Notes under the pieces: generated by a model
Databases searched by the model: none
Seen by the model: only the letters and a program-made list of their open reading frames with translations
What the model was told of the DNA's origin: nothing
Program-made: the position numbers and the translations under genes
Origin: a virus
Taxonomy: Duplodnaviria; Caudoviricetes
DNA: 61,322 nucleotides
Direction: 5' to 3' (one strand)
Virus record (IMG/VR): IMGVR_UViG_3300029319_006288
Span: 1 to 61,322 of that record
Part shown: positions 5,105-56,974 of the stretch, one piece after another
Layout: each line of letters opens with the position of its first letter
Position numbering within the stretch: the first letter of the stretch is position 1

Positions 5105-8100
5105 ATGTCGGAACCATTCTTAAAAAGTCTTGAATGTTCGTGCATCAAGGGCACATCTGTTACCTGCCCCGGTGGTGGAGAAGTCGATGCATTTCTTGGT
5201 TTAAATGAGGGGGTACTTTCTGCCACTCTTGAGAACGATTCTAAAATTACTTCTCCGGGTGAAACTCTTACCGCAAATTTTAGTACAGTATTGGATGGAT
5301 CTGGTCCGTACTTTACTATCAGTGGATGTTCTGATCCAGAAAACTGTGAATTTGTAGAGGCTGGATGGGAAGTAACAATCTCTGGTCTAGCGGGTGCTGT
5401 GCCATTTACAGAGACAGCAAATGTCATAAATACATATGCTGATGGTTCTGCATTAATCTTTTATGGTGGCGGTGTTGATCTTACCAATGCCCAAATTGAC
5501 AGCGTAGTTGCTAGTGGTATAGGTCATCCCACTCCTCCAAATGCAACTATAGCGAAATCGTTTGGTATTGAAGATATTATACTAGAGGGCGAGGGCGAGC
5601 TATCTAGATTATTATCAGCCGAGATACCATTTCCTTTAGTGTCTATCGAGGGCGATGGAGAGATTGACGAAGACCTCATTGCCGACTATTCTATTTATCA
5701 GCAGGTTGTTGGTGAGGGCGATTTTGATAACACAGTAGACAAGATGGCTGGAGACTTTGGCGACTTCTACTGTCAGGGTAAGCTGTATCCTTCTGGCGAC
5801 CTTCCTGTTGTAGACGGGTTCGGGTCGTTTATTGCCCCATACAATCAATCCGGTAATCTTTGGTCCTACATTGATGAAGGTGTTTATGAAGGTATAGCAA
5901 AAGATGGTGGCAATTCTAACAATCTATCAGATGATCTCAATTCATATATTGAGCCGAATACAATACATACAGAAGGGCTTTTTCAATATAACTGCAACTT
6001 AACAAGTTTGAATGTTAGGCCAGATCATTCTGCGTTTAGAATTCGTGTATCCGCACCATTATCAAACCTAGAGTCTAAGACTGCTCCTCTTTATACGCTA
6101 TACAATATTCGACTTTCTGATCCCTCTGGGAACTTAATTGTAAAATATAATGATATACAGATAAAGGGCGATGCTAACGACGAGTATGAAAACTTTTCAA
6201 CATACTCTTCTTTACCAGAATTAAATGTCATATCAGATAAGTATGACTGGGAGAGACGTGGGTTCCCTCACATGCACGAAGACGTTGGATACCAACTGTC
6301 TTTTAGTGTTCGTGCTGTTTCTCTGGATGATCCATTTACAGAGGGTTTCGACGAGGGTTTTGAAGAAAACTATATTATTCCTGAAACGTTCTATGCTAGT
6401 GGAAATAATTATCTTGCCCTAGATGGTCAACCTTTATCGACTCAAGAAGTCCGCTTTATCAATCCAACAAGAGGTTTTAGAATCTCTGCTGTTGAGATCT
6501 GTAATAGTGGCGGATTCGGACCAAGGCCAGAAGAATATCTGCCATTCCAAATGGCGGTTAGGGAAAAGGGCAGGCGTCTTGAGAGATGTATTCAGCCTAA
6601 CTTTATGCCCCTCAATACATACGACACTACAATATACCCAGCGGTAAACAATAACATATGGGAAAACGATACCCTCAATGCAACAAATGAGGATGTATGC
6701 GGGGCACAAGAACTTATTAATATTCTTAAAGTTCAAAATGATGACCGCTACATCAAGTTGCAAACCGCACAGGGTGGAGATGTTGCCGACTCTGGTAAAC
6801 TCATACTGAAGTTTAAACATGGAAGATCAAAAGTAGATGAAATTACTCCGGGTGATTTTAACTTTGCATTTGATCAGGGCACAAAAAATATATGGTTCTC
6901 ACCTAGCGGTGCGTTTAACGTAGAAAAACGTACAGAAGAGATACAAGAAGATTCGCCTTACTTTAATGTAGAATCTTTAACACTCAAGGTTCTGGCTAAA
7001 AAACAAGTAGGCACCAGAGACTATGTACTTGATGTTGTTGGTTACAGCGACGATAAGTTGTTGAATGTAACAAGTCCGTCTGGAGGATTTATTCAAGATC
7101 CATCTGGTGTTTTCTTGAATGACCAATTTGTACCCCATACTGGACAGCATCCAGTTCTCTCAGGGTTCTACGGTGACAACTCAGACTGGACAATGGGTGG
7201 TGCAGGTCTGTCTGAGAGAGATGACTACTTTGAGGCCAGCGGTAATGACCATTATAAATTGGCCCAATACCCAGTGGTTAATACTACCGACTTCCAACTT
7301 TACGAAGTGCCCTTGGTCATACTTGATGATAATGTAAGATATGGAATATCTAGAGATTATAGTTTAAGCTCACTACTAGAACATTTATACTTAGACATTT
7401 ATCCACTTCCTAGTGGTGCTTCTATTGCATATATAGAACTTTGTGCCAGATATGCACCAGCAGACGGTCTCAACATCTATACCCAAGGTGGTGAGAAGAT
7501 AGGTAAAGCTCAAGCTGGTAGATCAGAAGGTGCGTTGTTCCCATCGGGCATGGAATCTTATGATGATATACTTAACGCTGGTTCTGGATATCAACCAATT
7601 TCTGCCATTACAGGTCTTCCCCATGCTTATAGTTCGCCTGATACAATTAAAACAAACTACTCTAGAAGATGGCGAGGTTCAGAAGGTACAGTTCGTGGAC
7701 CATACGATCTAGATTCCTTCGGTTTTGGTTTTGAGAACCCAACCATAGACTACCCATTCTTGTCAGGTTACTACAAGTTTGATTCGTTTGGGCCAGAAAA
7801 TAGATATGTATTGTCTGTTGATATGGGTCCATCCTCTCCTAGCGGCTTGGGTACTCTCAGTGGTCTGTGCTTGACCGATCCAGAGATTCACCATAATATT
7901 GGTTGGAGATTCGCAAGCGGCACACTGTTTAACGATCAACTTCCGGGCTACAGCGGTAACTACACTACTACTGACTGGACATCTCTATCCAATGGTTCTA
8001 CAACCTTTGTTGGCAACCCATTGTATGGAAAGATTGCCGACGCATTTGATAGAGTCATTAGAATCAGCGGTGAGGCTGGTGGTCAGAATATTGACTTTGG

Positions 8101-11100
8101 CCCTGTTGATGTATCTGGCGGTTTTGCTATCTTCACTAGATTCACACCAGACGCAAACGTTTCTGGAGTAGACTACGACCTGTTTGACAGTGGCGTTATT
8201 GTGTCTAAGTGGAGCACTGCTGAAGACATGGATTTTGCCCTCGGTTATGACGATGGATTCCTTTGTGGTTATGCCCAAGATGTCAACGGTAATATTATAA
8301 CAGTCAAAGATACTATCAAGTATAGCGGTTATCAATTCCCATTAAATACTATTCTTACATATAATGATAGTGGCAACCATAGACTTAGACTTTACACTGA
8401 TAATGAATTTGGTGGATCTGACTTTGATGTGCTGAGAGCTACATCCTCTCCTTTCCATAAAAACGCAAACGATGCAAATGTTATCTTAGGATATTCTGCT
8501 GGCTCTGGCGTGGGTATGAACATGCTGGTCAGTGAGTTTGGTGTTTCTACCTATAGCTCTGGTGTTGACACACTGTACGGATTTGGTACGAACATTGTAG
8601 CGTCTGGTGCAGATAAAACTTACAAGGGCGTTAACGCAGATGTATTCCTAGAAAATAGTCGTGCTAAGTTCTTTGATCCCGATGAGTCTCATACTAATGA
8701 TAGATATAAACTGTGGGACAGGGTAAACGAAGATACTTATAATGATTGGGCCATTGGTGACTTTAAGTTTTGTCAGTTTGGTATTGGGTTTGATCAGTGG
8801 CAAAAGCGTCCAAACGCAGAACATATTATCTTCGAATTAAATCATCATGGTTCTGGTTATTCACAAAACAACGATTTACCATTATTATCTAACGTAGACA
8901 GCGGTGTTGCATATCACACACAGATGGAAAGCGATTTCCTACGATTCCACTTGTCAGACGTTCAAGATTCATTCTATGCTGTAAACAGAAGAATAACTAA
9001 AAACCTACCAGTCGGATATAAATTCTCTGAACGTGCCCTTGTTGTCGAGACTGTTCTTGAGCATAAGACCGGTGCAGGCATAGAGTGGGCAGCATGTACT
9101 GATATCATGCCTTCTGGACCTCAGATGATCGTCAGTCTTTACACAAAGAAGCAGGAGCCATATTGGACTCCAGACGAACCAAACTGGGGTCTTGTAAACC
9201 GCAAAACTCACTACATCAAACCGTCTAGTTGTTTAATTAAACTTGACTCTGTTTTTGATTACGATTCCATCTGTGAAGAAACTGATGCTTGGACCATCTT
9301 CCCCGAAGAGCCAAGATTAAAAGACTTCTCAGAAAGATATTTCAAAGACGATGTAAATCAAATGTTTGTTCAGTATGACTTGGTTTATCCATCTGGACCA
9401 GCGTTTGATTCTAGGATTGAGATGCACTCTTCGCATGTCAGGATGCAGGATGTCAACATTTGTAAGACTGCTAATAGTGGTACATTTAATTTGTATTCTA
9501 GCGGTGCTTATCCTGCGTCCAATACTCTGAATATGAACATCGGCGGGTTCCCAAGAGAAGTCAACGATAGCTTAGATCTTACTATTCAGGTTCCTTTTGA
9601 TTACGATGTTATTGCAGAAGGAATGCCTTCTGGGTTCTCACTAAATGTTAGTGGTGCCTTCCAGAGAGAATCCTCGCTCAATCTCTTTATACCACCGCAA
9701 TCTGGCGAAATTTCGTTTAATCTTTTTGTTAGCGGTCAGTTCCCAGATGTAGCTTCTGGAAGTATGCCAATCGCCTTGCCGGTTGTTCTTGGTGCATTGG
9801 ATAACTCCTTGGATGGAAATCCAGATACTTCAGATCCAAACTCTCCAAATTACGGTAGCGGGAATATCTTTGGTCTTCCTCTTACTGTCTATAATGTAGA
9901 CTTTGGTGAAAGCCCAGAGGGTCCATTCCTCAATCTGAATATGTCTGCTTCTCTCGGTGATGCAACTAGTATATACCGATCAATTCCAATGTTCTTGTAT
10001 AATAAGTCTATTGGAAATACACAAGAGACTGCTGCAAGTGGATTTATTAACCTAAACATGTTTGGAAGAAACCAGATTCCGGGTTCACGAACAACGTCTA
10101 CCATGCCGTTGTATATTAACGCTCCAAACATAATTGATACAGATATGAATCTGTATCTTCACAACCCACTAGTAGAATCTTTACTGACAAGCACAGTTAA
10201 TCTTGTTACGGCAAGTTACAATGTAGGATCTAAAGGTACTGGATCTGCATTTGGATTATGGCACAATAATAACTATGGGACCGGAATTGAATTAGAAGAT
10301 AACTCTTATGCTTCTCTGTCCGCAGATAATGAGATTAGAGGTGTAGATTTAATAGGTTATGGATCTTGCACAGGAGACAGTCCAAGCAAAGCGATTGATG
10401 CAGAACTAAAAACAGACTGCACTGTTTGGAGAGAAGAGACATGCAATGAGGGTGGAATATTCCGAGCCAAAGCTACCTACACAAATTCTGGTGCAATTAA
10501 CTTTGAGGGTGGCTTAGGATACAGTGGAAACTACTATGGAATAAGGAAGTACACTCAACTTCTTCCTTCTACTCCATACTTTGCGACTATGAGTATTGTT
10601 ACCGGTTCTACCGACGCTATTCCTGTCCCAAGGACATTTGAGGAATGGGAATATGGAATGTGTGGTCCAGCTTGGTATGCAGACGGTAGTGGATGCTGCA
10701 CAGAAGATTGTGATGGAAACATTGTATTCTCTGGTGTCAAACTTATTGGAGATGATGCTGGCGGTGTTCCTCCTTCTGCAAATCTTTACTCTGACTCTGA
10801 CTTGATCGTTGCATCTGGTAGAAGTGCTGGTGACAAATTTGGTCAAACCGTTGCTGTCAGTGAAGATATCATGGCTGTCGCCGCACCTAATATCACAATT
10901 CCTGATTTTGGCCTTTATCCTTCCGGTGGTGATGTTGGAAACATAGATGTTAGTGGTGCTGGTGCCGTGTTCTTATATCGAAGAGGGCAAGACGAAGCTG
11001 GCAAGAAAGCTGACTGGGTTTTAGAAGAGCAGTTGATGCTACCATCTGGTTACAGAAAAGATTACATCCAGAGAACAACAGATAATCTATTATCATTTGG

Positions 11101-14100
11101 TGACTTTGCTATCTCTGGAAACAAGTGGCAAATTGGTCAAGAGGGTAGACAGTTTGGTGAATCATTATCATTGTCAGCCAGTGGTGATAGAGAAGTTATT
11201 GCTGTTGGAGCACCTCGTGCTAAGTGGTCAAGACAGTTTGATGACCTTGTTACGTCTGGTGTCCCAACTGCGGGAATGATTTTTGCCGACCTGTTTGCAT
11301 ATGATAAAGGTAAACTACAAGGTGTTGCTGCTTCTGCTGGTAAGTTCAATATTCTTTGGAAATACTTCTCAGCACCTTGGAACGCTGGCCCAGACGAATG
11401 GTATGCGGAAATCAAGCCAAACTTACTTGTCTTCCAATTAACTTATTCAAATAGAAACTATCCAAATGTACCAACCGATGAGTCTGATTGGTTTACACAT
11501 AGATACATTCCTAGACTGGATGACCTCGATCTCTTGACTGAGATTGGTTCTGGTGTACTTGGCGGATCAGGAACTCTCGCTGACTTTGTTGCTTCTGGTC
11601 AACCGGTTGTGTTTAACCAGATGTTCAGTGGTGTTCTAGATGGATTCTTTACAGCTTTCCCAAGTGGTAATCCAAACGCTGCTGCCTACAGCGGTATTCC
11701 AGCTATTATTGGTATGTTTAAAGAGCAGACAGGATCTACTGCTGGAGCGTTGCAGTATGCTGATGATAACGGCACAGTTTACAATATTTATGACGAGTTC
11801 CAAGACTTCTATGAGAAGCACTCGTTTGCCAGCGGTGTGACTGATTTTGTTCAGGGCATCCAACAAAGTGGTCATTTGCATACAGTTATAGGTAAATCTG
11901 AAGACTGGGCAGCTACATCTGTTGAGTTGATGCAAGATACTTTTGATAGTGGCCGCTTATCAACAACATTTACTAACACTACTTTAAATAGAAACTTTAT
12001 CACTAGCGGTGTTGGTCAAATCTGGGGCAATACTCACGGGTCAGTTGTTACTGAGTTCCAAGTTCCTCCTGCATCTGGCGGTAGAGTTTACTTGTTTGAA
12101 AAAGAGCGTGACAACTTTAACTGTGTTCAAGTTATTGTTTCACCTAATGATACGTCTGAACTTTTTGAAGATCCAGATATTACATTTGGTGCTTCTTATG
12201 GCAAGACATACAATGACCGTTTCGGACACTCTGTTTCTCTTAGTAAGAATTCAGAAGTATTAGCAATTGGGTCTCCTTGGAATAATAATCCATGCAAGAT
12301 TTACGAGAGAAGCGAATCACAGATTCAAAGAGTATACGATAACATTAGAGCATGGCTCGTATATAAGGGAGATCCATTTACTTACGCTGTAGAATATTAT
12401 GATTCTGTAGAGGGTGCTTCTGGTGCAGCAATTGCTAAGACAGCTACTTATGATTACATTAAATCTCCAGACAGATTTGAATATCGAAACGATATTGATT
12501 TCTGGGGTTCTTCATTGCCAGAGCCATATCAGTTAACATTTGAATATGGTCACAATGATGTAAGATACTTTGGAACAAGAAAGTTTCTCATCGACGAGTT
12601 TGCAGGAACATCCAGAATGGGATGGAGTTGCTCTGTAGACGAAGATGGCGAGATTGTAGCGTTTGGGGCACCCACAGACTCCTTCAACGAATTTGAAGAT
12701 ATTAACGTTTGGGGTGATAACGTACTGTCTTGGGCTTCTTACAACAATGCTGGTGCAGTAAGAATGTTCCACAATAGAAAATACTTCCCACACGATAAGG
12801 TTGTAGAGTTCGGTCGCTTTGGAAACTTAGACAGATCAACCCATGACTCAGAAAGAAATGCTGGATACTACGATGAAAGCAACTGGCCCTTAATCTTTGG
12901 TTCTGGATCTAGCGGATTTTCAGAGTACCAAGGTAGGGACTGGCGAAGGATGGATTTCTCAGAAATAGAAATTCCTCAAGAGGCTGGCCTCGCATTTATT
13001 ATTACGCCAGAGGTTGATGCTGCCAGCGATGAGATTATTGAAAACATAAAAGACTGGATGGAGCTTGGCGATAGAAATCTTGTCTTGGTTGGTAACGACC
13101 CAGTATGGGAAGACAACGGACTGTACAAAGATTCCAATGATGTCATTAATAAGATCCTAGAAAAGTTAGGTTCTAGGATGCGGATTCAGGCAGCTAAAGA
13201 TCAAAGCTACTCAATGCAAGGATGTGTCAGTCAGCAAGACCTAAATGACGAGAAGTACAATGCTACTGCATCATTCTTGCCAGCATACTCTACACCAAGA
13301 ACAATTGAATTTGATGGTGAATATTACGTTAAGGGCGTTGGCGATATCCGCATAGACCTGTCTAGAGATGGTCTAGAAGATTACTTCGCCACAATTAACT
13401 GTCCAGACGGAGCGAACTGTGACGGACCACCTCTGATTATTAATACGAAGTGCGAGTTTGCATTAGACGGTAATCGTGGAGACTTACGTGCAGAATGGAA
13501 CGACTCTTGTATCAAGACTACACCTAAAAGCTGTAAGATAGTTCGCTACCAAAGAAACTGGCCGTTCTTATTTAACAACTTCACTCCTAATTGTGATGAA
13601 ACACCTCAACCATTATTCTTTAAGAAGGATCAGTCACCAACACCTGTCTTGACAACTGCCGAACATCTTCCTGAGATTTACTGGTTTGACCCAGCTACGT
13701 CTGGACTTTTTTGTGATTATTTCCAGCCCTACAAATACAGGGTCACACGTAAGAACGAAGAAACAACTTTCCTCGCAGAAGTAAACGAAGACGAAATCGC
13801 CTTTTTAATCCAAGAGGATAGCGACTCTGATATATCTGGAGTATTTACTGATTATGCTCTGGGTGGAGACATGTTTGATCCAGATGCAATCAATGGACGA
13901 GATGGTTTGATGCAAGCTACTGGAACCTCTGCAACGAGCGTTGACGAAAGAACTGTTCGAGAAACTGTTTATCCAGACCATATCTTTGGATTAGTTGAGT
14001 CGGGCAAAAAGGCTGATGGAACACTTAACAATTCTAGGGTTTACATCTTGGCTGGTCAGTGGCCGGAAGATGACGCTAGTAGAGGTATCAGTCACCCAAC

Positions 14101-19582: not shown

Positions 19583-19584
19583 TT

Positions 19585-20316
19585 ATGGCACATGCAGACA
19601 AACCACAGTGGTCAGATTTTTACGAAAATGATCCCCAATTGGGGCCATTATTACCGCTTACGTCTGGTCAAAGAGTACAGTTAATATCTGGCGTATTACC
19701 ATCTGGAGAGTCTTCGTTTTTTGACAATAGGCAGTTACATTCACAAAGACAAGAAACTATTGGTTTTAAAGGGTCTGGAATCAATGCACCGTTTCCATAC
19801 CCAAATCAGTCTACGAAAAACGAGTTCAAGTTCACAACGAATCTAGATCCATCGGGAGCAAGCGATTCGGGTGAAGATTCTCAATTTTCAGAAATGTTTA
19901 GTGATGAATGGTGGGCGGCATCTGGAATTATAAAAACATACCCAGCAGACGTTGTTGGCTACACGTCTGGCAATCCGGCCATGAACGCACAGGAAAGTGG
20001 CATCTTCCACTGGAACAGCGATGTAAATCCTGAAATTGCCCAACCAACGCCAGAAAGAACCATTATTGGCTGGGTAGTCCCAGAAGGTGAAGAGAGACCG
20101 ATAAGATTTTACACTCAGGACGAGTCACTCAAAGGATCTAAGTTTTCTAACGGAGAAGAGGCAAAGAGGTTGGCAAGAGAAGATTTTAATATCTTTAATA
20201 ATTACATTCATCACCAACATATGCCAGACAATGCTACTCCGGGGGAAACACTGAACATACCGTTCTTGTCTTCTTATAGAAAATCAATAGACTTGGATGT
20301 TTACAAACAAGGATAA
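19585..20316 (+). CDS. Hypothetical virion-module protein (243 aa), Ser-Gly rich
   Basis: Tightly packed ORF in the tail operon with 9 SG dipeptides in 243 aa. No family recognised. Confidence 0.6.
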   Translation: MAHADKPQWSDFYENDPQLGPLLPLTSGQRVQLISGVLPSGESSFFDNRQLHSQRQETIGFKGSGINAPFPYPNQSTKNEFKFTTNLDPSGASDSGEDSQFSEMFSDEWWAASGIIKTYPADVVGYTSGNPAMNAQESGIFHWNSDVNPEIAQPTPERTIIGWVVPEGEERPIRFYTQDESLKGSKFSNGEEAKRLAREDFNIFNNYIHHQHMPDNATPGETLNIPFLSSYRKSIDLDVYKQG

Positions 20317-20322
20317 GGAATT

Positions 20323-23300: not shown

Positions 23301-25485
23301 TTGGCTTGACTACTTGCAAGATTATGAAAACCACAAAGACTTAAAACCAGATGACGAAAGAAAAATATCAGATCCAAGTCTTGTTCGTGCAGGTGCTCTA
23401 AAAGGTAATTATAACCCATTCTCTGAAAGTTGGGAATGGAATTACAAACCAGAACCTCAAGGTGGATTTTTCGGGTTTAACATATTTGGAGTGAATGTAT
23501 CTGCTTTACAGGCTTTGAGAGCGGGTGTTCCTTGGTCGAGTATGCCACCAGCCATCCAGCAAGGTCTTTGCCCAATTGATATGAACAACTTGATGAGTGA
23601 TTCAAACAGGATTGAGTGCTATGCTCGTTATAATCATAGTGAGACATTAGATTTTACGGGCGTTAGTGCCAGTGATATGGTTCAGCAAGTTATGACCAAA
23701 GGTGGTCAATTCATTCCAGACGTTGTTGAGGAACTACCAAATAATAACATTGACAACAAACTAAGATTTGAAGCTCTTGCTCAAACAAAAGAAGAACAGA
23801 GAAAGAAAGAGCGACAGCCAGATTCGATGGCGTTCGTAAAATGTAGTGTTGATGAAACATTGTACATGCCGCCCAAACTGAAAAAGTATAACTTAGACGT
23901 TTATGCGAATGAGTATGAGTTTACTCTTAGTATTCCAGAACCTGTAAGAACTGAGGGTAAAAACGAAGATTGTACTCCTAGAATTACTTATGACTATCCA
24001 AACGCTATACCTTTATTCTCTATACCAAGAGATGGAGGCGTAGATGGAAGAAATGAGGAATGGTACGACTTTAGAAGAGTGTACGATAAAGAGACAGAAT
24101 CTTGGATTATTGATAGCGACATAGAGAAATTAGACGACAAACATGTTTACGCACTTGTTACGGTTCCCGGAAGAGTCAGAAGTATTATTGACACAAGATG
24201 GAACGATGGGCAAAATCAAGAGTATCAGGCTTTACAACTCAAGCACTTGATGACTCAAGACACTGTTCAGATTCCACAGTTTAGCAAGCCAAATATACCA
24301 CAGCCCGGACAATCTAAGATTCCTTGTGGACCGCCACCGACAGCTTCCGGTCAAGCTGAAGCCCAAGCTATTGGTAGTGGTTATGGATTGATTGGTGCAA
24401 CAAAAATAGACAGTGTAAGATATCCTACTTTATGGGGTGTAGATTTTAGTTCATTAGACTATGACGCTTATATTCCGGGTAAAAAAGAAGATTGGCTTAG
24501 ATTTTCCCTAGAAGAAATTAGTTCAGCTAGATCATTAAGTAAGAAGGTTATCGAAGGTAGTATAACTAACAATCCAAATGTGAGAATAAATTACACTCAG
24601 CCTTCTCCTGTATTCCCAGACATTGTTGCTATACCAATGATGTCTCACGAAAGGTGTTATGGCCCTTGGTTGTCATCATCTCAACTAAACCCAAGTGGCG
24701 ACCCAAGAGTTAAGTTTGCAGACATTGGAGGCAAGGTAGAGTTTATCAAGGATGAGAATTTTGCCCCTTGGAATTTCGCAGGCTATCAATTGATGAATGA
24801 GGCTGGCTCTTTACAGGCACAGTTCTCAAATAGTCTTCTACTGTTTAGTGAGAGAGGTGGATTTGCTATTCCAGATGCACCAACAGGAATTGCTTTGGCT
24901 TCAGCTTTGAAGCAGGCAGGCCCACTGGTTACTTCTATAGGTGTTAATGTCTCACAAGGAGGAGTCAAAACAACCGTGAAGATGGATCTTTACACCGCCC
25001 AATGGGGTAAACTTGCAAAACAAAAAGAAATGGCAATTAGTCAGATCGCAAGAGAAAGGCAAAAATTAAAAGACGAGCAGAACAGTGCGATCAGAAGAGG
25101 ATTAGGAAAAAGATCGACCAGTACAGATCTCGTAAATTCTGTAATGAACGCTGGCGGTCAACAGGTATTGAATATAGTTAATGGCGTTACTCAACAAACT
25201 GAAGCAAATAGAGAGCTTGGAAAAGAAGTATCTGAAGGTGTTATAGCTCTGGGTGCAAATGGAGGCGTTGCATATAACGACCCTAAAGACTTGCAGAAAG
25301 CACTTAGTACAGCAGATCAAAACTTAATGAAGCAAGAGTTTGAAAGGTCTGTGGTTGCATCGGTTACTGATTTCTTTCAGGCATTTTCTAAAGACCCAAG
25401 TAAATTCTTACCAAGTTATTTGTTGAACACATATAAACCTCTAAACCATATGATTGACCCGGACAATCATACACCTGAAGAATAG
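20323..25485 (+). CDS. Large tail or baseplate hub-like protein (1720 aa) with central coiled coil
   Basis: AGGA RBS upstream. The N-terminus has hub-like strands (FDLSAGFGDSASSMTINLV; FGGILQSYTQ..YSVSITDPREIL). There is an internal coiled coil and a C-terminal GPLVTSIGVNVSQGGVKTT strand pattern. Function is inferred from position and pattern only. Confidence 0.5.
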   Translation: MIGDNVYGIIPPSGEYNKDWPVHFNLPQGASGELSTGGWTADVQVSGNYGNEGFVQQTFLGASIRDFDLSAGFGDSASSMTINLVNDEYNDSDRQPLGLGDDPYHNGNSDQFLPPVVGTPVYFKFGKNPATIEQAFRQTYDDLYGIQTLPAKVAPNAWGYTFPEIPWDAEDFDELPPYYLVDRINNVAQDRSLLWDINTEWRGRAHFNFGGILQSYTQNKGPGGKPVYSVSITDPREILSNVNVLLNNYQDTTFNYKNLINLYGFLEYDPSTSLFTEFSTKAQGIGVIDKFTNNTTGEVLYVGVDAAWDAEDGLVKVEPKNPAMVQPDPPDGPFINLKDQYYFGQIPFAPDVLPEYFPITGQGFSRRSDKGMPWYRISQGLAAMFQYYGFLPQEYKDAGFGGAINFRGFNYVVDFGGIPTEKIPLLYYMDFDQIDLLSLAQELCDIISHELYVTLLPVIDHPASKFLFEYNNYQAENGYKENIIAGIIRLDAIDKTQQPQYGAIKSYIEELQDRGINVENSDVGFELSNVTTDKFVVGAQEVETYFFHSERDRDELWTEAQTNNVANRDWLQQHQWDIKVQEQQQMLPYYGLLGNNAVSIPRGFGSYQQILLDATNLNAYGVGNYYVATELELRAALVSYQKWKDFLLSYNETYVEDTSEHRAFLSALSSDKNQINKVFQDFRDRADFDNLPDGTAKTRIDEILTDLENRQYAVTVPRCVWHSDKPVVDEFGYPQSPCSPPFGYPLYYRRATAIGIVEAGVGKIVNAKTKVVKDTANLKKSFENVNSPLLKLPKKTLSERMKAIRSEINKLAEENKGDPNFKTHNKRYRALVEQLTEHTQIMNNYDKMAAALRSSNESVAFVEDLENGPLGKFLFNIEKTAKKHEENAKKVYNFVKKIADECLGKKFLVRIPKIANVGYSKTISTFDGTANFNIKNGPFGFVPRPISSDPKALGEFSYDINTLPIFDAGMPSFVEDLNLAIQNRLSGGNASNLWLDYLQDYENHKDLKPDDERKISDPSLVRAGALKGNYNPFSESWEWNYKPEPQGGFFGFNIFGVNVSALQALRAGVPWSSMPPAIQQGLCPIDMNNLMSDSNRIECYARYNHSETLDFTGVSASDMVQQVMTKGGQFIPDVVEELPNNNIDNKLRFEALAQTKEEQRKKERQPDSMAFVKCSVDETLYMPPKLKKYNLDVYANEYEFTLSIPEPVRTEGKNEDCTPRITYDYPNAIPLFSIPRDGGVDGRNEEWYDFRRVYDKETESWIIDSDIEKLDDKHVYALVTVPGRVRSIIDTRWNDGQNQEYQALQLKHLMTQDTVQIPQFSKPNIPQPGQSKIPCGPPPTASGQAEAQAIGSGYGLIGATKIDSVRYPTLWGVDFSSLDYDAYIPGKKEDWLRFSLEEISSARSLSKKVIEGSITNNPNVRINYTQPSPVFPDIVAIPMMSHERCYGPWLSSSQLNPSGDPRVKFADIGGKVEFIKDENFAPWNFAGYQLMNEAGSLQAQFSNSLLLFSERGGFAIPDAPTGIALASALKQAGPLVTSIGVNVSQGGVKTTVKMDLYTAQWGKLAKQKEMAISQIARERQKLKDEQNSAIRRGLGKRSTSTDLVNSVMNAGGQQVLNIVNGVTQQTEANRELGKEVSEGVIALGANGGVAYNDPKDLQKALSTADQNLMKQEFERSVVASVTDFFQAFSKDPSKFLPSYLLNTYKPLNHMIDPDNHTPEE

Positions 25486-25494
25486 GAATAGGAA

Positions 25495-28400
25495 ATGAAG
25501 AACCCAGATAAAACAGATTTTCATGTTTTTGAAACTAACCATCCATATTTTATTGAATTGGGACTCGGTACGTTTACTACTGGCACTTTACTTGAGTGGT
25601 GGAATGAACGTGATAATCTAGGAAGATATCTAAACAGGCGTCATATCAATGTTCCTTTTGGTCCAACTGATAAACTGGATACTGTTACTAATACTCTACA
25701 AAACCTATTAGGCATAACTGACACTACAGAATTTTCTTGGTACGGATGGAAGCCAAATTTGGATACTCCAAATGCTGGAAGATTCGCAAAACAAAACCTT
25801 AAAGGTTTAGATTCTAACGCAGGTGGCGAAGACAGTTACATATGGTCATATGCTGGGAAAACAACTGTAGGAATAGGTGACATTCAATCCACCGTTGACA
25901 GGCTCAATTTAGACACAGAAAATCCGGTTATTGGAGTTTTTCTTAGCGGTGTCGATCCTGCGTATCCTGACGTTCAGCCGTTGTATGTCAGTGCAGCAGA
26001 CCCATTTGATCCTCCTAGTACCCCAGAAGAGATAAATGAAGCAACATCTGGAAACATTGCTCTTGCTGAGTATTATGCACCACTAAAAGATATATCCCCT
26101 TTGTACAGCTTGATTCAGCTTAACAAGTTTATAAATCATTTTGATGATTATTACCCAAGAGAAACTTGGGAATTGAATGCAGCGAATACATACCCCGGAC
26201 TAGAGAAGAAACAGGCTTTTGGCTCATACGCACTCTTAAATGAAATTAAATCAGCCAAAAGCAACCCAAGAATACAATGGTCTGGCGACGTTACATTCTT
26301 TATAAATCAAAACGATGGGCTCATACAAAACTGTGAGATAACTGACAATATTACATTTAGTCTTTACCTTAAAGACGAATCAATGACTGCAAAGACTGGC
26401 AAAGCAGTCACTATGAAGGAAATGTCGTTTGTTGGACCAAGGCGAGATGCTGTAGGTGCAATTGGTGGAGAAGATGGTGAGCGAGTATCTGACGATCAAG
26501 AAGATGTTACTAGGCAGGCTGCTGGAGAGGTAGATCTTCAATGGAATCCTGTGACTAAAAAGTGGCAAAGCGGAAACGTAAATATGCTTTGTAAACTTGT
26601 TACCCAGCTAAGACCCGGAAAAGTTCCCACACTAGACCATCTCTTAAATAACGACATTAGAGACACACTAGAAGAAGAAGATAATGCAAATTGCTATATT
26701 CCTTCTCGCGGTTCCGGTATGCTCATCAGGACACAGAACAGTATGCCCCTTCAATGGTCGCCCAACTATGCAGAAACAGCAGATACAAGATGTAAGGATG
26801 AAGGCAGAAACAAGCAAATCGTTCCTGTTTACAACTTCAACCCTAGAAAAACATATCCATCAGGCGAAGAAGTTTTGCTTACGCAGATTGACGGTGTTTG
26901 GCATGTTAGTGACTTGGGCAGGGGCGAGGAAGAAGAAGAAGCACCACCGGTCGCCGTAGGTATTGGAAGGTGGGGATCATTCACTTATACCATGACATCT
27001 AGTCAGTTTTTCTTCAAGGGCTTACCTAGCGGCAATACTACTAAGGAATATGTAGATATTACGCCTAGAGATGCAGAATTAAATTTTCATGTTAATTATT
27101 ATCTTTCCGCAAAAACTGACCCGAAACTTCAAGGTGCAGAAGATGCACTTTTAAATCTGTTTCGTAAATATGATAATCCCGGCGATGAAGTAACTGGAAG
27201 AACACCCAATGGTGGATACAACTTTACTCAACCATTCAATACTGCAAACTATGGACGATGGGGTGATGTGCCCGCATATTTTCAGCAAACATCATTTGAT
27301 TACCTAGATAGTCAAATTTTTGGAATACGTGGAAAAGATTCTTCAAGAACAACAGACGGTCCAGATAAGTGCTCAATAGCCTCTACTTCTGCTACACTTA
27401 ATTCTGCGGGTAAAGTCATTCCGTTTGAAGCTAGTGAATATCCGGATAGAAATGCCGCACACTGCGGTGCATTTTTTGGCTGTTTATTTCCTAATGGATA
27501 TCAGGGCACAGAAATATATGATGGAGATGATCCTAGAACTTTCCTCGTAGATGGAGAAAGTAGTCGTGATGCCAATTTTGAAGATTATTTTAATGTAGAC
27601 AACCAATCTATTACCACAAACCCATTTGATAGAGGGAATGGACTGGATGATAGAAATGATGTTAGCGTTCAAACACAGGCTCAAGTTAATCAACCATTTG
27701 AATCATGGAGTATAGAGCAAAATTCTTGGTCCAGAGGAACCTATGCTCATCAAGCTAATATCTTTTATCTTGACGCTGAAAATCAGCGTAAGAGTATGCC
27801 AGCAGATGTTATGCTTAATGCTTCTCCAGATGGAAAAAATGGAAGCCCAATCAAGCCAATAGGCGTGTTCAATGATATTTATCCCACAGGAGCACCCAAA
27901 ACTAAATGGGATGATCCTAGTTTTGATCTTGTTAAATCAGTACCAAATAAAGTTAATGAAGGTGTTTGGTTATATAGAGCACCAGAAACTGGAGAAGCAG
28001 ATATCAATGTGAGTGCATTTGATTTTCAACCGGTAACACGGTCCAATATCATGTTTAGACCTCTAAAAATGGAGGCTTATCTTGGTATGGGGCAATTAAG
28101 TGTTCCATTTAATAAGGTTGATGCGGATAGAAGCACTCTTATGGATGTAGATAAATGGGTTAAAGAGAGGAGTATTCCTAATTGGGGTGAATTTAAAACC
28201 AATCCGGCTACATTATTTACTGAAATAGCAACATCTACGGTAAGTAAAGAATTACCTATTGGTGGTTATGCATCTGACCGTGAGTTTCCAAACGCTAAAC
28301 ACAACTTTGCCGGATATGAAAGAGGAAATGCCTACCCTCAAGGCCCATTAAAGTGGGGTGCTTGGACAAAACACAAGCCAACCTACACCAGATTGCATGA

Positions 28401-29946
28401 ATATAACTATTGGGAACGAAGCATTGCTGGCGGGGGAATGTACTTCGCCAATGAGTTTATCACGGGTGGCGATCCGTACCGGATGGAAGGTGATTACGAT
28501 AGTAACTGGAAAGGTGCGGGAGCTTTTGGAATTATTACAACGAGCCTCAAAGTATCAGCAAATACCATAATAGAATTTACCACAAAAAATCTGTATGGTA
28601 TGGGTGCAGCAGCCGCTGGCGAGTTTACCATTCAGGGTGGTCACGCTGAACAGAATAAGAGTTGGGGCGTCAGTAACTTTATAGAAAGCTATAAACAAGA
28701 AAACATTATAGATCTTAGTGTTAGAATTTATCAGGGGCATCCTACGGAGCAAACTCTTTATGACCCAAGATACTTTGCAGTCCACCATTTTAATCCGGGT
28801 GTAGACTTTGCGTTTGATTTATATCAGGGTACAGGTGTTATCCCAGTAAACGCCTTGGGACAAGGTAAACCTATTCCAAGAAATTACCTGTCTGATGATT
28901 TTAAAAATCTGAGGGATGGTAATGGTGATCTTTTAGATACTGTAACTTATGTCTTCCCAGAGGCTAGTGGTGCCGATATTGGAATTCCAAGTAGGTGGGA
29001 GAAGCACATCGACCCTACAGTTTCTGGTGACAATCTTCACCATGTAGATGGAGGAACTTTTAGTCCAATTGAACTTGCCAACTACAGTCGTGTTTTCAAA
29101 GATGCTACGGCAGAAGGAGTGTTTGGCCTGCTTTCGGCTCCCAAGCCACCATTGATGAATGAAGAATATTGGTTGCCAGATACAAAAAGAAATGGTAAAT
29201 TATTGCCTTATAGGTACTACGCAAAAACACTAGGTGTTCCCATTCCTCATCTGATCTCAGATAATCCTTCTGTTACTATGGTTGCAGAAAAAGATGTTGA
29301 AGGTGAACCAGCTTGGAACCACGCAGGCTCACTAATTGTTACTAATTCTGGCACAGGGTTCTCCGTAGACGAGGCGGTTGGTATATTTGAAAATGACATT
29401 ATCTTGAGAGTTACAGCAGTAGGCGAGGGTGGTTCCGTCGCGGGATTGTCAGTGGAAAGATTTGGATCTGGTATTCCGGTCAATAAAACGAGAGGTAGTG
29501 GAGATCTAATTGGTAGCTTTACGTCTAATTTTACAATATCTCCGCTTGTTGGTGCTGGTGAAGGGTTCAATGGATACTTTGTTTCTGCTGGACTGCAAAA
29601 TAGTATTCAATATGATGACAAACCATTCCTTATAAAAAGAAATGGTCAGGAAATAAATAGGATCGCTGCTAACGAACCCGGACCAAAACATCTTTCTACT
29701 GGAAAATCAAGTGCAGCAGAACCACTTGCGTTCATTGAAGATACTGAGACCGTTCAATATATTATTCCTGAATTACTCAAGACTAACGATGGCTCATATG
29801 ACATTTTCTTCCATTTTCATAATGATATAACTATGACTTGGTTTGCTTGCGGTAGTAGATCTAGCCAAACACCGTGGGGCGATTTCGACAACAATGCCGA
29901 AGCCAACGAACAGTATATTTCAATTGAGGGCATAAACTTACTCTAA
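25495..29946 (+). CDS. Large tail-associated structural protein (1483 aa)
   Basis: AGGA RBS upstream. The C-terminal VTNSGTGF...VTAVGEGGSVAGLSVERFGSG segment resembles the Gly-rich beta repeats of phage baseplate and tail-fibre proteins. Confidence 0.5.
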   Translation: MKNPDKTDFHVFETNHPYFIELGLGTFTTGTLLEWWNERDNLGRYLNRRHINVPFGPTDKLDTVTNTLQNLLGITDTTEFSWYGWKPNLDTPNAGRFAKQNLKGLDSNAGGEDSYIWSYAGKTTVGIGDIQSTVDRLNLDTENPVIGVFLSGVDPAYPDVQPLYVSAADPFDPPSTPEEINEATSGNIALAEYYAPLKDISPLYSLIQLNKFINHFDDYYPRETWELNAANTYPGLEKKQAFGSYALLNEIKSAKSNPRIQWSGDVTFFINQNDGLIQNCEITDNITFSLYLKDESMTAKTGKAVTMKEMSFVGPRRDAVGAIGGEDGERVSDDQEDVTRQAAGEVDLQWNPVTKKWQSGNVNMLCKLVTQLRPGKVPTLDHLLNNDIRDTLEEEDNANCYIPSRGSGMLIRTQNSMPLQWSPNYAETADTRCKDEGRNKQIVPVYNFNPRKTYPSGEEVLLTQIDGVWHVSDLGRGEEEEEAPPVAVGIGRWGSFTYTMTSSQFFFKGLPSGNTTKEYVDITPRDAELNFHVNYYLSAKTDPKLQGAEDALLNLFRKYDNPGDEVTGRTPNGGYNFTQPFNTANYGRWGDVPAYFQQTSFDYLDSQIFGIRGKDSSRTTDGPDKCSIASTSATLNSAGKVIPFEASEYPDRNAAHCGAFFGCLFPNGYQGTEIYDGDDPRTFLVDGESSRDANFEDYFNVDNQSITTNPFDRGNGLDDRNDVSVQTQAQVNQPFESWSIEQNSWSRGTYAHQANIFYLDAENQRKSMPADVMLNASPDGKNGSPIKPIGVFNDIYPTGAPKTKWDDPSFDLVKSVPNKVNEGVWLYRAPETGEADINVSAFDFQPVTRSNIMFRPLKMEAYLGMGQLSVPFNKVDADRSTLMDVDKWVKERSIPNWGEFKTNPATLFTEIATSTVSKELPIGGYASDREFPNAKHNFAGYERGNAYPQGPLKWGAWTKHKPTYTRLHEYNYWERSIAGGGMYFANEFITGGDPYRMEGDYDSNWKGAGAFGIITTSLKVSANTIIEFTTKNLYGMGAAAAGEFTIQGGHAEQNKSWGVSNFIESYKQENIIDLSVRIYQGHPTEQTLYDPRYFAVHHFNPGVDFAFDLYQGTGVIPVNALGQGKPIPRNYLSDDFKNLRDGNGDLLDTVTYVFPEASGADIGIPSRWEKHIDPTVSGDNLHHVDGGTFSPIELANYSRVFKDATAEGVFGLLSAPKPPLMNEEYWLPDTKRNGKLLPYRYYAKTLGVPIPHLISDNPSVTMVAEKDVEGEPAWNHAGSLIVTNSGTGFSVDEAVGIFENDIILRVTAVGEGGSVAGLSVERFGSGIPVNKTRGSGDLIGSFTSNFTISPLVGAGEGFNGYFVSAGLQNSIQYDDKPFLIKRNGQEINRIAANEPGPKHLSTGKSSAAEPLAFIEDTETVQYIIPELLKTNDGSYDIFFHFHNDITMTWFACGSRSSQTPWGDFDNNAEANEQYISIEGINLL

Positions 29947-29955
29947 ATCAATTTT

Positions 29956-29990
29956 ATGTGTATAATACATTGTAAATCTTTACAAGGAGA
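29956..29990 (+). promoter_or_regulatory. Putative late promoter ATGTGTATAATAC (copy 2), inverted repeat TTGTAAA-TC-TTTACAA and AGGAG RBS
   Basis: All in the 52-nt intergenic gap: 13-mer at 29956-29968, perfect 7-bp inverted repeat at 29970-29985, AGGAGA at 29985-29990, ATG at 29999. Confidence 0.6.
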
Positions 29991-29998
29991 TTAAAACT

Positions 29999-30748
29999 AT
30001 GGCGACAATAACATTTCACGCAAATAACGAAAATATCTATACAGAGGGCACTGGAAACCAGCCAGACCTTATCAATAGTAACGCTGGATCGGGTCTAGGG
30101 TTCTTTGGTGGAGGTTTTGGTATTTCTGTTCCAGTTAGCCAGTATCAGGATTCTACATATGTTACTGATGCAAACGGCACTACTTCTGGTATCAAGTGCT
30201 CTAATTTAAAGTATTCGACTGACACAACTGCTTTTATTCAGGGCGAGGGATCAGACAGTGTAGTTTCTGGTATTCCAAATATCGCTGCACCACTGAATAT
30301 TAGGTTTGAGAATAGCGATGCTGTACGTGTCCAGAACTGCAAATTAAGAATTTTTGACCGTCAGAGCATTGATAACCATGCGAGTGGCGTTGTAACTAAG
30401 GTCTACGAAATTAGACACCCACATCCAGTTATTGGTGTAGATTTTGGTGCAAATAAAGGGCCACTCAAGTTTAGGGGTGTTGCAGACGATCACGAGTGGG
30501 AACAGTTTACTGACGGGTTTGCGATGGCAGATTACGTTATGACGCCCGGACCCGGACCTAGTGGTTTAAATACCTCGTCAGATGACCCTCTGGCAACTGG
30601 TGATGGCACACACTTTAATCATATTGCTCAATCTGGTGAGGCTTGTCGTGCTAATCGTCACGACTGGTATGTTGCTTTGAGTGCATCGCCAAACAGTATT
30701 GGGAGCAAGACAGACTTCGGACTTTATTTCACGTTAGAATATCTATAG
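29999..30748 (+). CDS. Putative virion structural protein (249 aa)
   Basis: Strong RBS and its own promoter-like motif. Starts MATITF, is beta-rich and has 6 SG dipeptides. No family recognised. Confidence 0.55.
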   Translation: MATITFHANNENIYTEGTGNQPDLINSNAGSGLGFFGGGFGISVPVSQYQDSTYVTDANGTTSGIKCSNLKYSTDTTAFIQGEGSDSVVSGIPNIAAPLNIRFENSDAVRVQNCKLRIFDRQSIDNHASGVVTKVYEIRHPHPVIGVDFGANKGPLKFRGVADDHEWEQFTDGFAMADYVMTPGPGPSGLNTSSDDPLATGDGTHFNHIAQSGEACRANRHDWYVALSASPNSIGSKTDFGLYFTLEYL

Positions 30749-32848: not shown

Positions 32849-33281
32849 TGAAAATCTCCTTTAATTTATCAACCGACCAATCCTCTACGAGAACCGGTTT
32901 GTGCCCTGTTAGTCTATAAAACGTGTTGTAGTCTACTAGGTTATCTACGAGTACCTTGTATGTCTGTGCTATGCCAACAAAGTCAAACAAGTTTCTTTCT
33001 ATATCTTCACTGGAACTAAAGAGATATGCAAGTTTAATACTATTAACAGTTGACACGGCCCTTCTTAAATTATCTATTGTGGTACAAATTAGGTTGCCGT
33101 TAAAACTCCACATATCAGCAGAGTCAAACATTCCAAACTTAGGAGCTACTGGATTAAAACCAGTGTCGTTGAAAAATACAGAAGCAGAGGTGAGGTCTGC
33201 AACTGATTTGTTTAGAAAGTTGTAAATCTTTGTATTTTGTGGAGTGCCAGCACTAGTAGGTACGAAAAATCCTAAATTCAT
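32841..33281 (-). CDS. Hypothetical protein (146 aa), possibly a glycosyltransferase-like half domain
   Basis: Alpha/beta pattern starting MNLGFFV. Coupled to the glycan island by a one-base overlap. The family call is weak. Confidence 0.45.
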   Translation of the reverse strand: MNLGFFVPTSAGTPQNTKIYNFLNKSVADLTSASVFFNDTGFNPVAPKFGMFDSADMWSFNGNLICTTIDNLRRAVSTVNSIKLAYLFSSSEDIERNLFDFVGIAQTYKVLVDNLVDYNTFYRLTGHKPVLVEDWSVDKLKEIFNG

Positions 33282-51134: not shown

Positions 51135-51135
51135 T

Positions 51136-56209: not shown

Positions 56210-56238
56210 ATTATAGTCTTATATCGACTATTTTCCAA
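56210..56238 (-). promoter_or_regulatory. Sigma70-type promoter TTGGAA-N17-TATAAT upstream of the dnaE N-half
   Basis: On the minus strand, the -35 is at 56238-56233, the spacer is 17 nt and the -10 is at 56215-56210. Same GACTATAATA context as the ssb promoter. Confidence 0.7.
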
Positions 56239-56956: not shown

Positions 56957-56974
56957 AATATCCTCCTAAAATCA

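What the first reader, a model, noticed from the sequence alone, without database searches (positions are those of the whole stretch)
5105..30748. Ser-Gly over-representation in structural proteins: candidate sequon for phage-encoded virion O-glycosylation
Seen (hand counts): the 4224-aa protein has about 105 SG against about 37 GS, a roughly 2.8-fold asymmetry that composition cannot explain. The sites run along the whole chain, often as (A/P/V/T/D/N)SG. SG density is similar in the 243-aa (9) and 249-aa (6) proteins, intermediate in the 600-aa protein (about 8), and low in the 1720-aa (about 7) and 1483-aa (about 12) proteins. The Gly-rich, internal tape measure has only about 11 in 1666 aa. 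Synonymous codons vary (tct, agt, agc, tcc; ggN), so selection is on the protein. Established: Ser-Gly is the glycosaminoglycan attachment site of animal proteoglycans. Some mycobacteriophages O-glycosylate virion serines with their own GTs, and chloroviruses and mimiviruses glycosylate their own particles. Inference: the adjacent glycan island decorates many SG serines to give a proteoglycan-like coat. I know of no described sequon-directed phage system of this kind.
Basis: partly seen in the sequence, partly recalled or inferred. Interest (0 to 1): 0.9.

Follow-up and report, generated by a model that had tools for sequence, protein, structure and literature searches.

The report
Ser-Gly excess in phage virion proteins
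A family of large uncultured phages carries two to three times more Ser-Gly pairs than expected at conserved sites in many of its particle proteins; this is real and unusual, but whether those serines carry sugars made by the neighbouring sugar genes is still untested.

Summary
The 4224-aa protein has 105 SG against 37.7 expected and 37 GS. SG is its only outlier dipeptide (z about 11; maximum 58 in 5000 shuffles). The excess is in frame and uses both serine codon families.

It is ancient and family-wide. All 77 related viral contigs show it (median 2.3-fold, range 1.41-3.09). So do 59 distant homologues pooled (2.22) and the 243-aa family (4.1). In two complete relatives, every ORF with p below 0.001 lies in the structural block. 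T4 and T5 structural proteins give 1.17 and 1.18.

SG serines are far more conserved than other serines (77% against 47%). They are rarely replaced by Thr. At depth they exchange mainly with Asn/Asp, and the Gly does too, which is turn-like behaviour.

The sugar island is real, entirely soluble and present in all 35 relatives tested, so no GT-less comparator exists. Lineages with a truncated or undetected 326-aa GT have the lowest SG ratios, but some GT-intact lineages lose SG serines equally.

Best reading: a family-specific structural Ser-Gly idiom (0.40). The glycosylation sequon stays live (0.30). Nothing shows that the island acts on proteins.

The parts
95..5095 (+). 1666-aa Gly-rich ORF upstream (open at the 5' end of the window).
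   Evidence: SG 11 vs 11.7 expected. No Pfam family. The tape-measure label rests on position only.
5105..17779 (+). 4224-aa giant virion protein with 105 SG sites spread along the whole chain; contains FG-GAP-type propeller repeats.
   Evidence: Pfam FG-GAP_2 E 8.5e-22. No PHROG. No internal repeats by self-BLAST. 127 homologues at E up to 0.001.
17780..19582 (+). 600-aa protein with moderate SG excess.
   Evidence: 8 vs 4.5. Homologues 1.44-1.99 in 11 loci.
19585..20316 (+). 243-aa protein. Its most conserved columns are SG motifs (SGVLPSGE, GSGIN, ASGI, ESGIF). No confident fold.
   Evidence: 9 vs 2.0. Alignment A1 of 33 of the 35 homologues. Family pooled 231 vs 56.4. AF2 mean pLDDT 46.9.
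20323..25485 (+). 1720-aa distal, fibre-like protein. It is SG-poor here and SG-depleted in most relatives.
   Evidence: 7 vs 8.2. Relatives 0.28-1.16, with 8 of 10 full-length rows below 0.8.
25495..29946 (+). 1483-aa protein without SG excess.
   Evidence: 12 vs 8.9. Full-length relatives 0.61-0.94.
29999..30748 (+). 249-aa protein with SG excess.
   Evidence: 6 vs 2.5. Homologues 2.66-3.47 in the 5 loci that reach it.
33281..51158 (-). Sugar island: epimerases/dehydratases, DegT aminotransferase, ATP-grasp, methyltransferases, NTP transferase, DUF5672, several GT1/GT4-type transferases and unassigned ORFs. All are predicted soluble.
   Evidence: Pfam. No hydrophobic 19-mer at or above 1.6 in any of the 35 minus-strand ORFs.
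44369..45349 (-). 326-aa GT1/GT4-type transferase, a core gene of the family. It is truncated or not detected in the lineages with the lowest SG ratios.
   Evidence: Pfam Glycos_transf_1 E 4e-17. Full length in 30 of 40 records, the 10 without a match being 19-57% complete fragments. N-terminal half only in G022, G031, G032; a weak remnant in G033; none in G034. Generic GT4 relatives in the PDB.
49446..51158 (-). 570-aa protein with a GT1 domain. ORFs of 550-597 aa with a GT1 match recur in the relatives.
   Evidence: Pfam. Matches with open frames of 550-597 aa. One weak PDB hit to Gtf1 (5e9t, E 0.004).
56228..58852 (-). Cytidylyltransferase-like ORF (242 aa) and a 625-aa ORF with weak GT8 and phosphoribosyltransferase matches, beyond the polymerase genes.
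   Evidence: Pfam.

Best explanation
SG marks conserved structural positions in a subset of the virion proteins of this phage family: tight turns, strand ends and helix caps. The Ser hydroxyl can cap the backbone in place of Asn/Asp, and the Gly takes the left-handed conformation. The family uses Ser-Gly where other phages use a mix of residues. On this reading the excess is a lineage-specific structural idiom held by purifying selection, and no modification is needed. Shown: the excess, its conservation, its restriction to virion proteins and the substitution pattern. Inferred: the backbone geometry and the capping role of Ser. No coordinates were available to check them.
For: Against six homologues at 52-65% identity, SG serines are 77% conserved against 47% for other serines, and SG glycines 87% against 64%. 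Against 51 homologues at 26-62% identity, the figures for Ser are 57% against 26%, with 37% for all columns. In that deeper set the replacements at the Ser are mostly Asn and Asp, and those at the Gly are mostly Asn and Asp, as at turn positions. Some sites flip as a pair: site 2196 has N 25 / S 19 at the first position and N 25 / G 20 at the second. AGY codons, one transition from Asn AAY, make up 54 of 105 SG serines against 70 of 271 other serines. The flanks are hydrophobic: L/I at -3, A/V/F at -2, P/A/V at -1, V/N/Y after the Gly. In the confident part of the model, SG sits at two hairpin turns (1950, 2026), a helix C-cap (2243) and a helix N-cap (2282). Twenty-two FG-GAP-only proteins hit weakly by the query also show a milder excess (277 vs 181, 1.53). 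A published virion-protein predictor ranks SG 10th among virion-favoured dipeptides (PMC7072630, passage read).
Against: It does not explain why the excess is specific to this lineage. T4 and T5 structural proteins give only 1.17 and 1.18. It does not explain why proteins without BLAST-detectable homology share the excess. The contexts are mixed, not one motif: of 17 SG in the confident region, 8 are in loops, 6 in helices and 3 in strands. The 243-aa protein has no confident fold, yet its SG motifs are its most conserved columns and recur as SG followed by V or I, which looks like a recognised linear motif. Thr is disfavoured before Gly (12 vs 24.3). Only two outside phages were used as baseline.
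Confidence: 0.4

Rival explanations
1. SG serines are acceptor sites for O-glycosylation in the cytoplasm by the phage's own soluble GT-B transferases, fed by the island's sugar-nucleotide pathway. On this reading many virion proteins, above all the giant protein, leave the cell heavily glycosylated. The sites sit in turns because the enzyme reads folded loops.
For: A diffuse short-motif excess across mostly non-homologous proteins is what a trans-acting recogniser gives. The excess is limited to virion-module proteins: G004 block 360 vs 187.5 against 126 vs 109.3 for the rest, and all ORFs with p below 0.001 lie in the structural block in G004 and G019. Ser is required and Thr is disfavoured (TG 12 vs 24.3; Ser to Thr in 10 of 420 cells). 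The distal 1720-aa protein is SG-depleted in most relatives, which could be avoidance. The island is conserved in 35 of 35 relatives tested. It has no membrane protein, priming transferase, flippase or polymerase, which suits a soluble acceptor. The five records whose 326-aa GT is truncated or undetected have giant SG ratios of 1.41-1.67, which are five of the six lowest among 77 loci. Precedent: TibC heptosylates serine, not threonine, in loops of the TibA beta-helix, and one mapped site is an N-S-G-G context (PMC4358343, passages read).
Against: No result shows that the island acts on protein. SG serines exchange with Asn/Asp more than with Thr. Flanks are hydrophobic, and some sites are modelled inside helices and strands. 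Non-virion proteins are not clearly SG-depleted (1.15 in G004, 1.27 in G019), so SG alone cannot be the whole determinant. GT-intact lineages L085, L059 and L058 lose core SG serines as much as the GT-less ones do (odds ratios 0.40-0.56 against 0.40-0.67). The GT-less records fall in only two clades of an unresolved polytomy. Co-occurrence within one phage family is a single evolutionary observation.
Confidence: 0.3
2. SG, often as SG followed by V, I or L, is a short linear motif read by something other than a glycosyltransferase: another modifying enzyme, an assembly chaperone, or repeated docking sites between virion subunits.
For: In the 243-aa family the invariant and near-invariant columns cluster in four or five SG motifs with conserved neighbours (S35 G36 L38 P39 S40 G41 E42; S64 G65 I66 N67; S113 G114 I115; S138 G139 I140 F141), while the protein has no confident fold. 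V is 2.8-fold enriched after SG in the giant. The poorly modelled part of the giant shows short strands bracketed by SG on both sides.
Against: No candidate reader was identified. The motif context in the giant is loose. The idea is not separable from the other readings with the tools at hand.
Confidence: 0.15
3. Ser-Gly replaces Asn-Gly and Asp-Gly at turns because those pairs deamidate or isomerise with time. Long-lived free particles with very large proteins are selected for the chemically stable pair.
For: NG is below expectation in all 56 distinct giant homologues (mean 0.71, range 0.43-0.96). The SG ratio falls as the DG ratio rises (rho -0.50) and as the NG ratio rises (rho -0.28). In the window, NG is low in every structural set (0.32-0.76) against 1.06 in non-structural ORFs. 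S and N exchange at SG sites.
Against: SG density ranges from 10 to 27 per 1000 residues, whereas NG ranges only from 2 to 6 and DG from 3 to 7. The two SG-poor distal proteins share the particle's lifetime. It does not explain the conserved SG motifs of the 243-aa family.
Confidence: 0.08
4. The excess is a by-product of composition, codon or DNA-level bias, or of a repeated domain.
For: None found.
Against: Shuffles never exceed 58. Out-of-frame counts are 13 and 20. GS is at expectation. Self-BLAST found no internal repeats. The sites are conserved across homologues.
Confidence: 0.02

Closest known systems
Autotransporter heptosyltransferases (TibC/AAH) acting on TibA and AIDA-I
   Same: A soluble cytoplasmic GT-B enzyme places many sugars on serine, not threonine, in loops of a folded beta-rich surface protein. 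One mapped TibA site has Ser followed by Gly-Gly (PMC4358343, passages read).
   Different: No GT9-type heptosyltransferase family was found in the window. The acceptors here are phage virion proteins without sequence repeats. Modification here is unproven. The heptosylation motifs of Lu et al. 2014 and the figure supplements were not seen.
Virion glycosylation by mycobacteriophage-encoded glycosyltransferases
   Same: Phage-encoded transferases lie next to structural genes and are thought to decorate virion proteins. An announcement abstract states that phage Maravista's two putative GTs suggest capsid glycosylation (PMC11256854, search listing and abstract start only).
   Different: As I recall from Freeman et al. 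2023 (not held, not read), the sugars there sit on Ser/Thr-rich C-terminal extensions of capsid and tail-tube subunits, not on a dispersed dipeptide. Those phages carry two or so GT genes, not an island of about 20 genes.
Self-encoded glycosylation in giant viruses (chloroviruses, mimiviruses)
   Same: A virus-encoded sugar-nucleotide pathway plus transferases decorates the virus's own particle at non-canonical sites (recalled, not read here).
   Different: Those are eukaryotic viruses with N- or fibril-linked glycans. No sequence relation was tested.
Glycosaminoglycan attachment at Ser-Gly in animal proteoglycans
   Same: The acceptor is the Ser of a Ser-Gly pair.
   Different: That site has acidic neighbours (recalled). 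Here D and E are depleted next to SG (0.49-0.73) and the flanks are hydrophobic. No xylosyltransferase-type family was found. There is one sub-threshold GT31 match (22.3 bits against a cut-off of 23).
FG-GAP / integrin-alpha type beta-propeller repeats
   Same: Parts of the giant protein match FG-GAP_2 (E 8.5e-22). FG-GAP-only proteins hit weakly by the query show a mild SG excess (1.53).
   Different: Pfam reports only two matched stretches in 4224 aa. The SG sites run along the whole chain and also occur in proteins with no FG-GAP match.

Membership tests
Sequon-directed protein O-glycosylation (any type) | Sugar shown on the acceptor residue, or enzyme shown to act on the protein | not testable with these tools
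   It needs mass spectrometry or co-expression. No such data exist for these uncultured phages.
Sequon-directed protein O-glycosylation (any type) | Motif enriched in target proteins relative to non-targets of the same genome | tested here: met
   Window: 2.57-2.78 in four virion proteins against 0.72 in 35 other ORFs. G004: 1.92 against 1.15. G019, weaker: 1.56 against 1.27.
Sequon-directed protein O-glycosylation (any type) | Motif density follows presence of the transferase across lineages | tested here: inconclusive
   All 35 relatives tested have GT1 genes. The five records with a truncated or undetected 326-aa GT have five of the six lowest ratios. They form at most two clades, and three GT-intact lineages lose core SG serines equally.
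Autotransporter heptosyltransferase (BAHT) system | GT9-type heptosyltransferase gene next to its substrate gene | tested here: not met
   Pfam scans of all 35 minus-strand ORFs and the 7 plus-strand ORFs gave no Glyco_transf_9 match.
Autotransporter heptosyltransferase (BAHT) system | Serine-only acceptors in loops of a beta-rich fold | tested here: inconclusive
   Ser rather than Thr is preferred. Only 8 of the 17 SG sites modelled with confidence are in loops.
Proteoglycan GAG-attachment site | Acidic residues flanking Ser-Gly | tested here: not met
   Upstream D 0.73 and E 0.50; downstream D 0.49 and E 0.50 relative to composition. The rule itself is recalled.
Lipid-carrier polysaccharide (LPS/capsule-type) gene cluster | Priming phosphoglycosyl transferase, flippase, polymerase or ligase with membrane spans | tested here: not met
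   No such Pfam family and no hydrophobic 19-residue segment in any of the 35 ORFs. Host enzymes could still supply these steps.
FG-GAP beta-propeller repeat proteins | Match to the FG-GAP profile above its curated cut-off | tested here: met
   FG-GAP_2 77.5 bits against a cut-off of 23, in two stretches. This applies to parts of the giant only.
Turn or cap position with left-handed Gly | Gly exchanges with Asn/Asp, and the preceding residue exchanges among Ser/Asn/Asp | tested here: met
   Per-site substitution lists over 51 homologues. Backbone angles themselves could not be read because no coordinates are given.

The most novel reading that the evidence does not exclude
A whole family of 160-175 kb uncultured phages uses Ser-Gly as a sequon. 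Conserved soluble GT4-type enzymes, supplied by a phage-encoded pathway of about 20 genes for an unusual sugar, would O-glycosylate on the order of a hundred serines on the giant tail protein and many more on other particle proteins, while the distal receptor-side proteins avoid the motif. That would be the first sequon-defined, virion-wide glycosylation system in phages, with a coat comparable to a proteoglycan.
Probability: 0.3. Interest if true: 0.85.

Novelty: new variant of a known kind. Interest (0 to 1): 0.6.

Why it matters
If the serines are glycosylated, this would extend phage-encoded virion glycosylation from a few actinophages to an abundant uncultured family. It would give a readable sequence signature for predicting glycosylated virion proteins from metagenomes, and it would assign a function to a large sugar island that is a core feature of the family. 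If they are not glycosylated, the family still offers more than a hundred conserved Ser-Gly sites as a natural data set on how one dipeptide can become a lineage-wide structural idiom. It would also caution against reading motif excess next to glycosyltransferases as a sequon. Either way the question is now sharply testable with one small protein (243 aa) and one candidate enzyme (326 aa).

Tried and rejected
- **DNA-level motif or codon bias:** rejected by frame counts and mixed codons.
- **Tandem or internal repeats:** self-BLAST of the giant found none.
- **One shared domain:** BLAST among 24 G004 virion ORFs links only p1503/p660/p804/p398 and p536/p595, and never the giant.
- **FG-GAP fold alone:** FG-GAP-only proteins reach 1.53, not 2.2-2.8.
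- **Asn-Gly replacement as the whole cause:** the numbers are too small.
- **Naming the proteins:**
  - Pfam found only FG-GAP_2 in the seven plus-strand proteins.
  - PHROGs found nothing in six of them; the 1666-aa ORF was not sent.
  - Pfam gave only coiled-coil-type matches in one ORF and a terminase in another among 19 G004 ORFs.
  - PHROGs gave virion, head, tail-fibre or baseplate hits in 5 of 10 G004 ORFs, plus one family of unknown function.
  - NCBIfam named only the ATP-grasp among 10 island ORFs.
- **Cultured relatives:** tblastn against 50,697 phage records found nothing for the 600-aa and 243-aa proteins. The 326-aa GT gave only two weak partial hits.
- **Fold of the 243-aa protein:** pLDDT 46.9, unusable. 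The protein atlas gave only unnamed viral clusters below 0.9.
- **Fold of giant residues 1430-2330:** only about 1909-2330 is confident. Foldseek against the PDB found nothing at E 0.001 or better.
- **Solvent exposure of SG serines:** not computable, because the fold tool returns no coordinates.
- **DNA as the sugar acceptor via a thymidylate-synthase-like hydroxymethylase:** present in only 2 of 5 complete genomes. This is not family-wide, and other routes were not tested.
- **GT loss against SG loss:** inconclusive.
- **Other:** no tRNA in the window. Earlier findings were not open. No complex prediction was run, because enzyme-substrate pairs are a poor use of that tool.
Full report
**Observation.**

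| Protein | SG observed | SG expected |
|---|---|---|
| 4224-aa (5105-17779) | 105 (GS 37) | 37.7 |
| 243-aa | 9 | 2.0 |
| 249-aa | 6 | 2.5 |
| 600-aa | 8 | 4.5 |
| 1720-aa | 7 | 8.2 |
| 1483-aa | 12 | 8.9 |
| 1666-aa upstream ORF | 11 | 11.7 |

Five thousand shuffles of the giant gave a mean of 37.7, sd 5.6 and a maximum of 58. SG is the only outlier of 400 dipeptides (z 10.9; the next is 3.6).

The signal is at protein level. There are 105 in-frame SG hexamers against 13 and 20 out of frame, and both serine codon families are used. AGY codons are over-represented at SG sites (54 of 105, against 70 of 271 other serines).

P, A and V are enriched before SG, and V and N after it. D, E, K and R are depleted or absent beside it. 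TG, PG and NG are depleted.

The sites are spread along the chain, and self-BLAST finds no internal repeats.

**Setting.**

The record held for this genome is the window itself. The plus-strand proteins have no Pfam or PHROG family except FG-GAP_2 in the giant.

The minus strand carries a real sugar island:
- three epimerase/dehydratase-type enzymes plus a Polysacc_synt_2 enzyme;
- a DegT aminotransferase, an ATP-grasp enzyme and two methyltransferases;
- an NTP transferase, a cytidylyltransferase and a DUF5672 protein;
- GT1/GT4-type transferases of 283, 326 and 570 aa;
- weak GT31, GT8 and MptE-like matches, and several unassigned ORFs.

None of the 35 minus-strand ORFs has a hydrophobic 19-residue segment. 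No priming transferase, flippase, polymerase or ligase family was found. The pathway therefore looks wholly soluble.

**The excess is family-wide and old.**

- The 243-aa protein has 35 homologues.
- Eleven viral contigs share the gene order. In them the giant's homologue has 2.53-2.86 times the expected SG.
- In those contigs the 243-aa homologue has 1.83-5.67, the 600-aa 1.44-1.99 and the 249-aa 2.66-3.47.
- The 1720-aa homologue has 0.28-1.16 and the full-length 1483-aa homologue 0.61-0.94.
- My own sum over nine distinct 1720-aa homologues, from the rows, is 50 against 83.7.
- A full-library search with giant residues 1430-2330 found 127 proteins, 73 of them below 1e-30.
- The 59 strong hits of at least 1000 aa pool to 3318 against 1496 (2.22; minimum 1.45; GS 1.10). 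The 243-aa family pools to 231 against 56.4.
- A further scan gave 77 viral loci, and the giant ORF's ratio there has median 2.3 and range 1.41-3.09.

**Which proteins.**

In the complete 173-kb relative G004, every ORF with Poisson p below 0.001 lies in the structural block: 4141 aa at 2.72, 1503 aa at 2.39 and 536 aa at 2.78.

| Set | SG observed vs expected | Ratio |
|---|---|---|
| G004 structural block | 360 vs 187.5 | 1.92 |
| G004 block without the giant | 270 vs 154.4 (still the top dipeptide, z 9.3) | 1.75 |
| G004 other 122 ORFs | 126 vs 109.3 | 1.15 |
| G019 structural block | 292 vs 186.9 | 1.56 |
| G019 rest | 145 vs 114.0 | 1.27 |

G019 is a complete genome from the other main clade. 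It repeats the pattern more weakly: some proteins are strongly enriched and others are poor, for example 1051 aa at 0.45.

The SG-rich proteins are mostly not homologous at BLAST level. PHROGs names several of them as virion, head, tail-fibre or baseplate proteins.

Outside baselines are T4 structural proteins at 50 vs 42.6 (1.17) and T5 at 63 vs 53.3 (1.18). Only these two outside phages were examined.

**Conservation.**

Against six homologues at 52-65% identity:
- SG serines are 77% conserved, with 41% invariant; other serines are 47% and 21%.
- SG glycines are 87% conserved, against 64% for other glycines.
- 29 of 112 SG columns are shared by all seven sequences, against 5 of 93 GS columns.
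- Ser to Thr accounts for 10 of 420 cells.

Against 51 homologues at 26-62% identity, SG serines are 57% conserved against 26% for other serines. The usual replacements are Asn and Asp at both positions. This is how turn positions with a left-handed second residue behave.

In the 243-aa family the invariant columns are the SG motifs themselves.

**Structure.**

The 243-aa protein did not fold (pLDDT 46.9). The giant segment folded confidently only for residues about 1909-2330.

There, 17 SG sites fall in 8 loops, 6 helix positions and 3 strand positions. They include two hairpin turns and two helix caps. So there is no single motif.

Exposure could not be computed. Foldseek found no solved relative.

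**Link to the island.**

GT1 genes are present in 35 of 35 records tested, including 11 of 11 that are at least 90% complete.

The 326-aa GT is a core gene:
- It is full length in 30 of 40 records searched by protein. The 10 without a match are fragments 19-57% complete.
- Only its N-terminal half remains in G022, G031 and G032. There is a weak remnant in G033 and nothing in G034.
- Those five records have giant SG ratios of 1.41-1.67, which are five of the six lowest.

On a tree they form two starred clades inside an unresolved polytomy. One clade has a GT-intact sister with ratio 2.12.

Core SG serines, defined on the other main clade, are kept at 39-51% in the GT-less lineages, against 61-64% for other conserved columns. 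But GT-intact L085, L059 and L058 show the same loss. I count this as a lead, not as evidence.

A thymidylate-synthase-like gene, which could point to DNA as the sugar acceptor, is in only 2 of 5 complete genomes.

**Comparison with known systems.**

The nearest working analogue is the TibC/AAH family. It is a soluble GT-B enzyme that hyper-heptosylates serine, not threonine, in loops of a beta-helix adhesin. One of the two mapped TibA sites is followed by Gly-Gly and the other by Ala (PMC4358343, passages read). No GT9-type gene is present here.

Mycobacteriophage virion glycosylation is known to me from memory (Freeman et al. 2023, not read) and from one announcement abstract (PMC11256854).

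The proteoglycan analogy fails on flanking residues. A virion-protein predictor ranks SG among its top 20 dipeptides (PMC7072630), in line with the mild general excess seen in T4 and T5.

**Verdict.**

The mechanism is open. My odds are:

| Reading | Probability |
|---|---|
| Structural-only | 0.40 |
| Glycosylation sequon | 0.30 |
| Another recogniser of the motif | 0.15 |
| Asn-Gly/Asp-Gly avoidance | 0.08 |
| Artefact | 0.02 |

The searches I ran turned up no paper describing an SG-directed phage system.

Noticed in passing
window 51494-56149 (-): The DNA polymerase III alpha gene is split. The PHP and NTPase domains lie in one ORF (54521-56149) and the finger domain in another (51494-53059). 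Between them sit a DnaQ/RNase T-like exonuclease (53854-54528) and a NaeI-like endonuclease fragment (53336-53857).
   Followed up: no
window 60219-61322 (-): A DUF1501 (sulfatase-superfamily) protein runs off the window's end (E 2e-48). This is unusual cargo for a phage.
   Followed up: no
window 56975-58852 (-): A 625-aa ORF has weak GT8 and phosphoribosyltransferase matches, and the neighbouring ORF matches DUF5824. Its function is unknown, and it sits apart from the main island.
   Followed up: no
window 19585-20316 (+): The 243-aa family (35 members) has no confident fold but very strongly conserved short motifs, including a W-W pair and PFPYPN besides the SG motifs. It looks like a chain that folds only on a partner.
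   Followed up: partly
window 20323-25485 (+) and homologues in L001-L011: The 1720-aa distal protein is SG-depleted in most relatives (as low as 2 vs 7.2), while GS is not depleted to the same degree. This is the opposite of its neighbours.
   Followed up: partly
G022, G031, G032 (records of L084, L086, L093): The ortholog of the 326-aa GT survives only as an ORF of 174-178 aa covering the N-terminal half. The donor-binding C-terminal domain is gone.
   Followed up: partly
window 9479-9760 (giant residues about 1458-1551) and 17504-17779 (its C-terminal end): Short predicted strands with an N-L pair are bracketed by SG on both sides, for example SG, six residues, SG. This may be a small repeated structural unit too short for BLAST to find.
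   Followed up: no
G004 75773-84355 (-) against window 95-5095: The ORF upstream of the giant is 2860 aa in G004. In the window it is at least 1666 aa and is cut by the window edge, so its true length is unknown.
   Followed up: no
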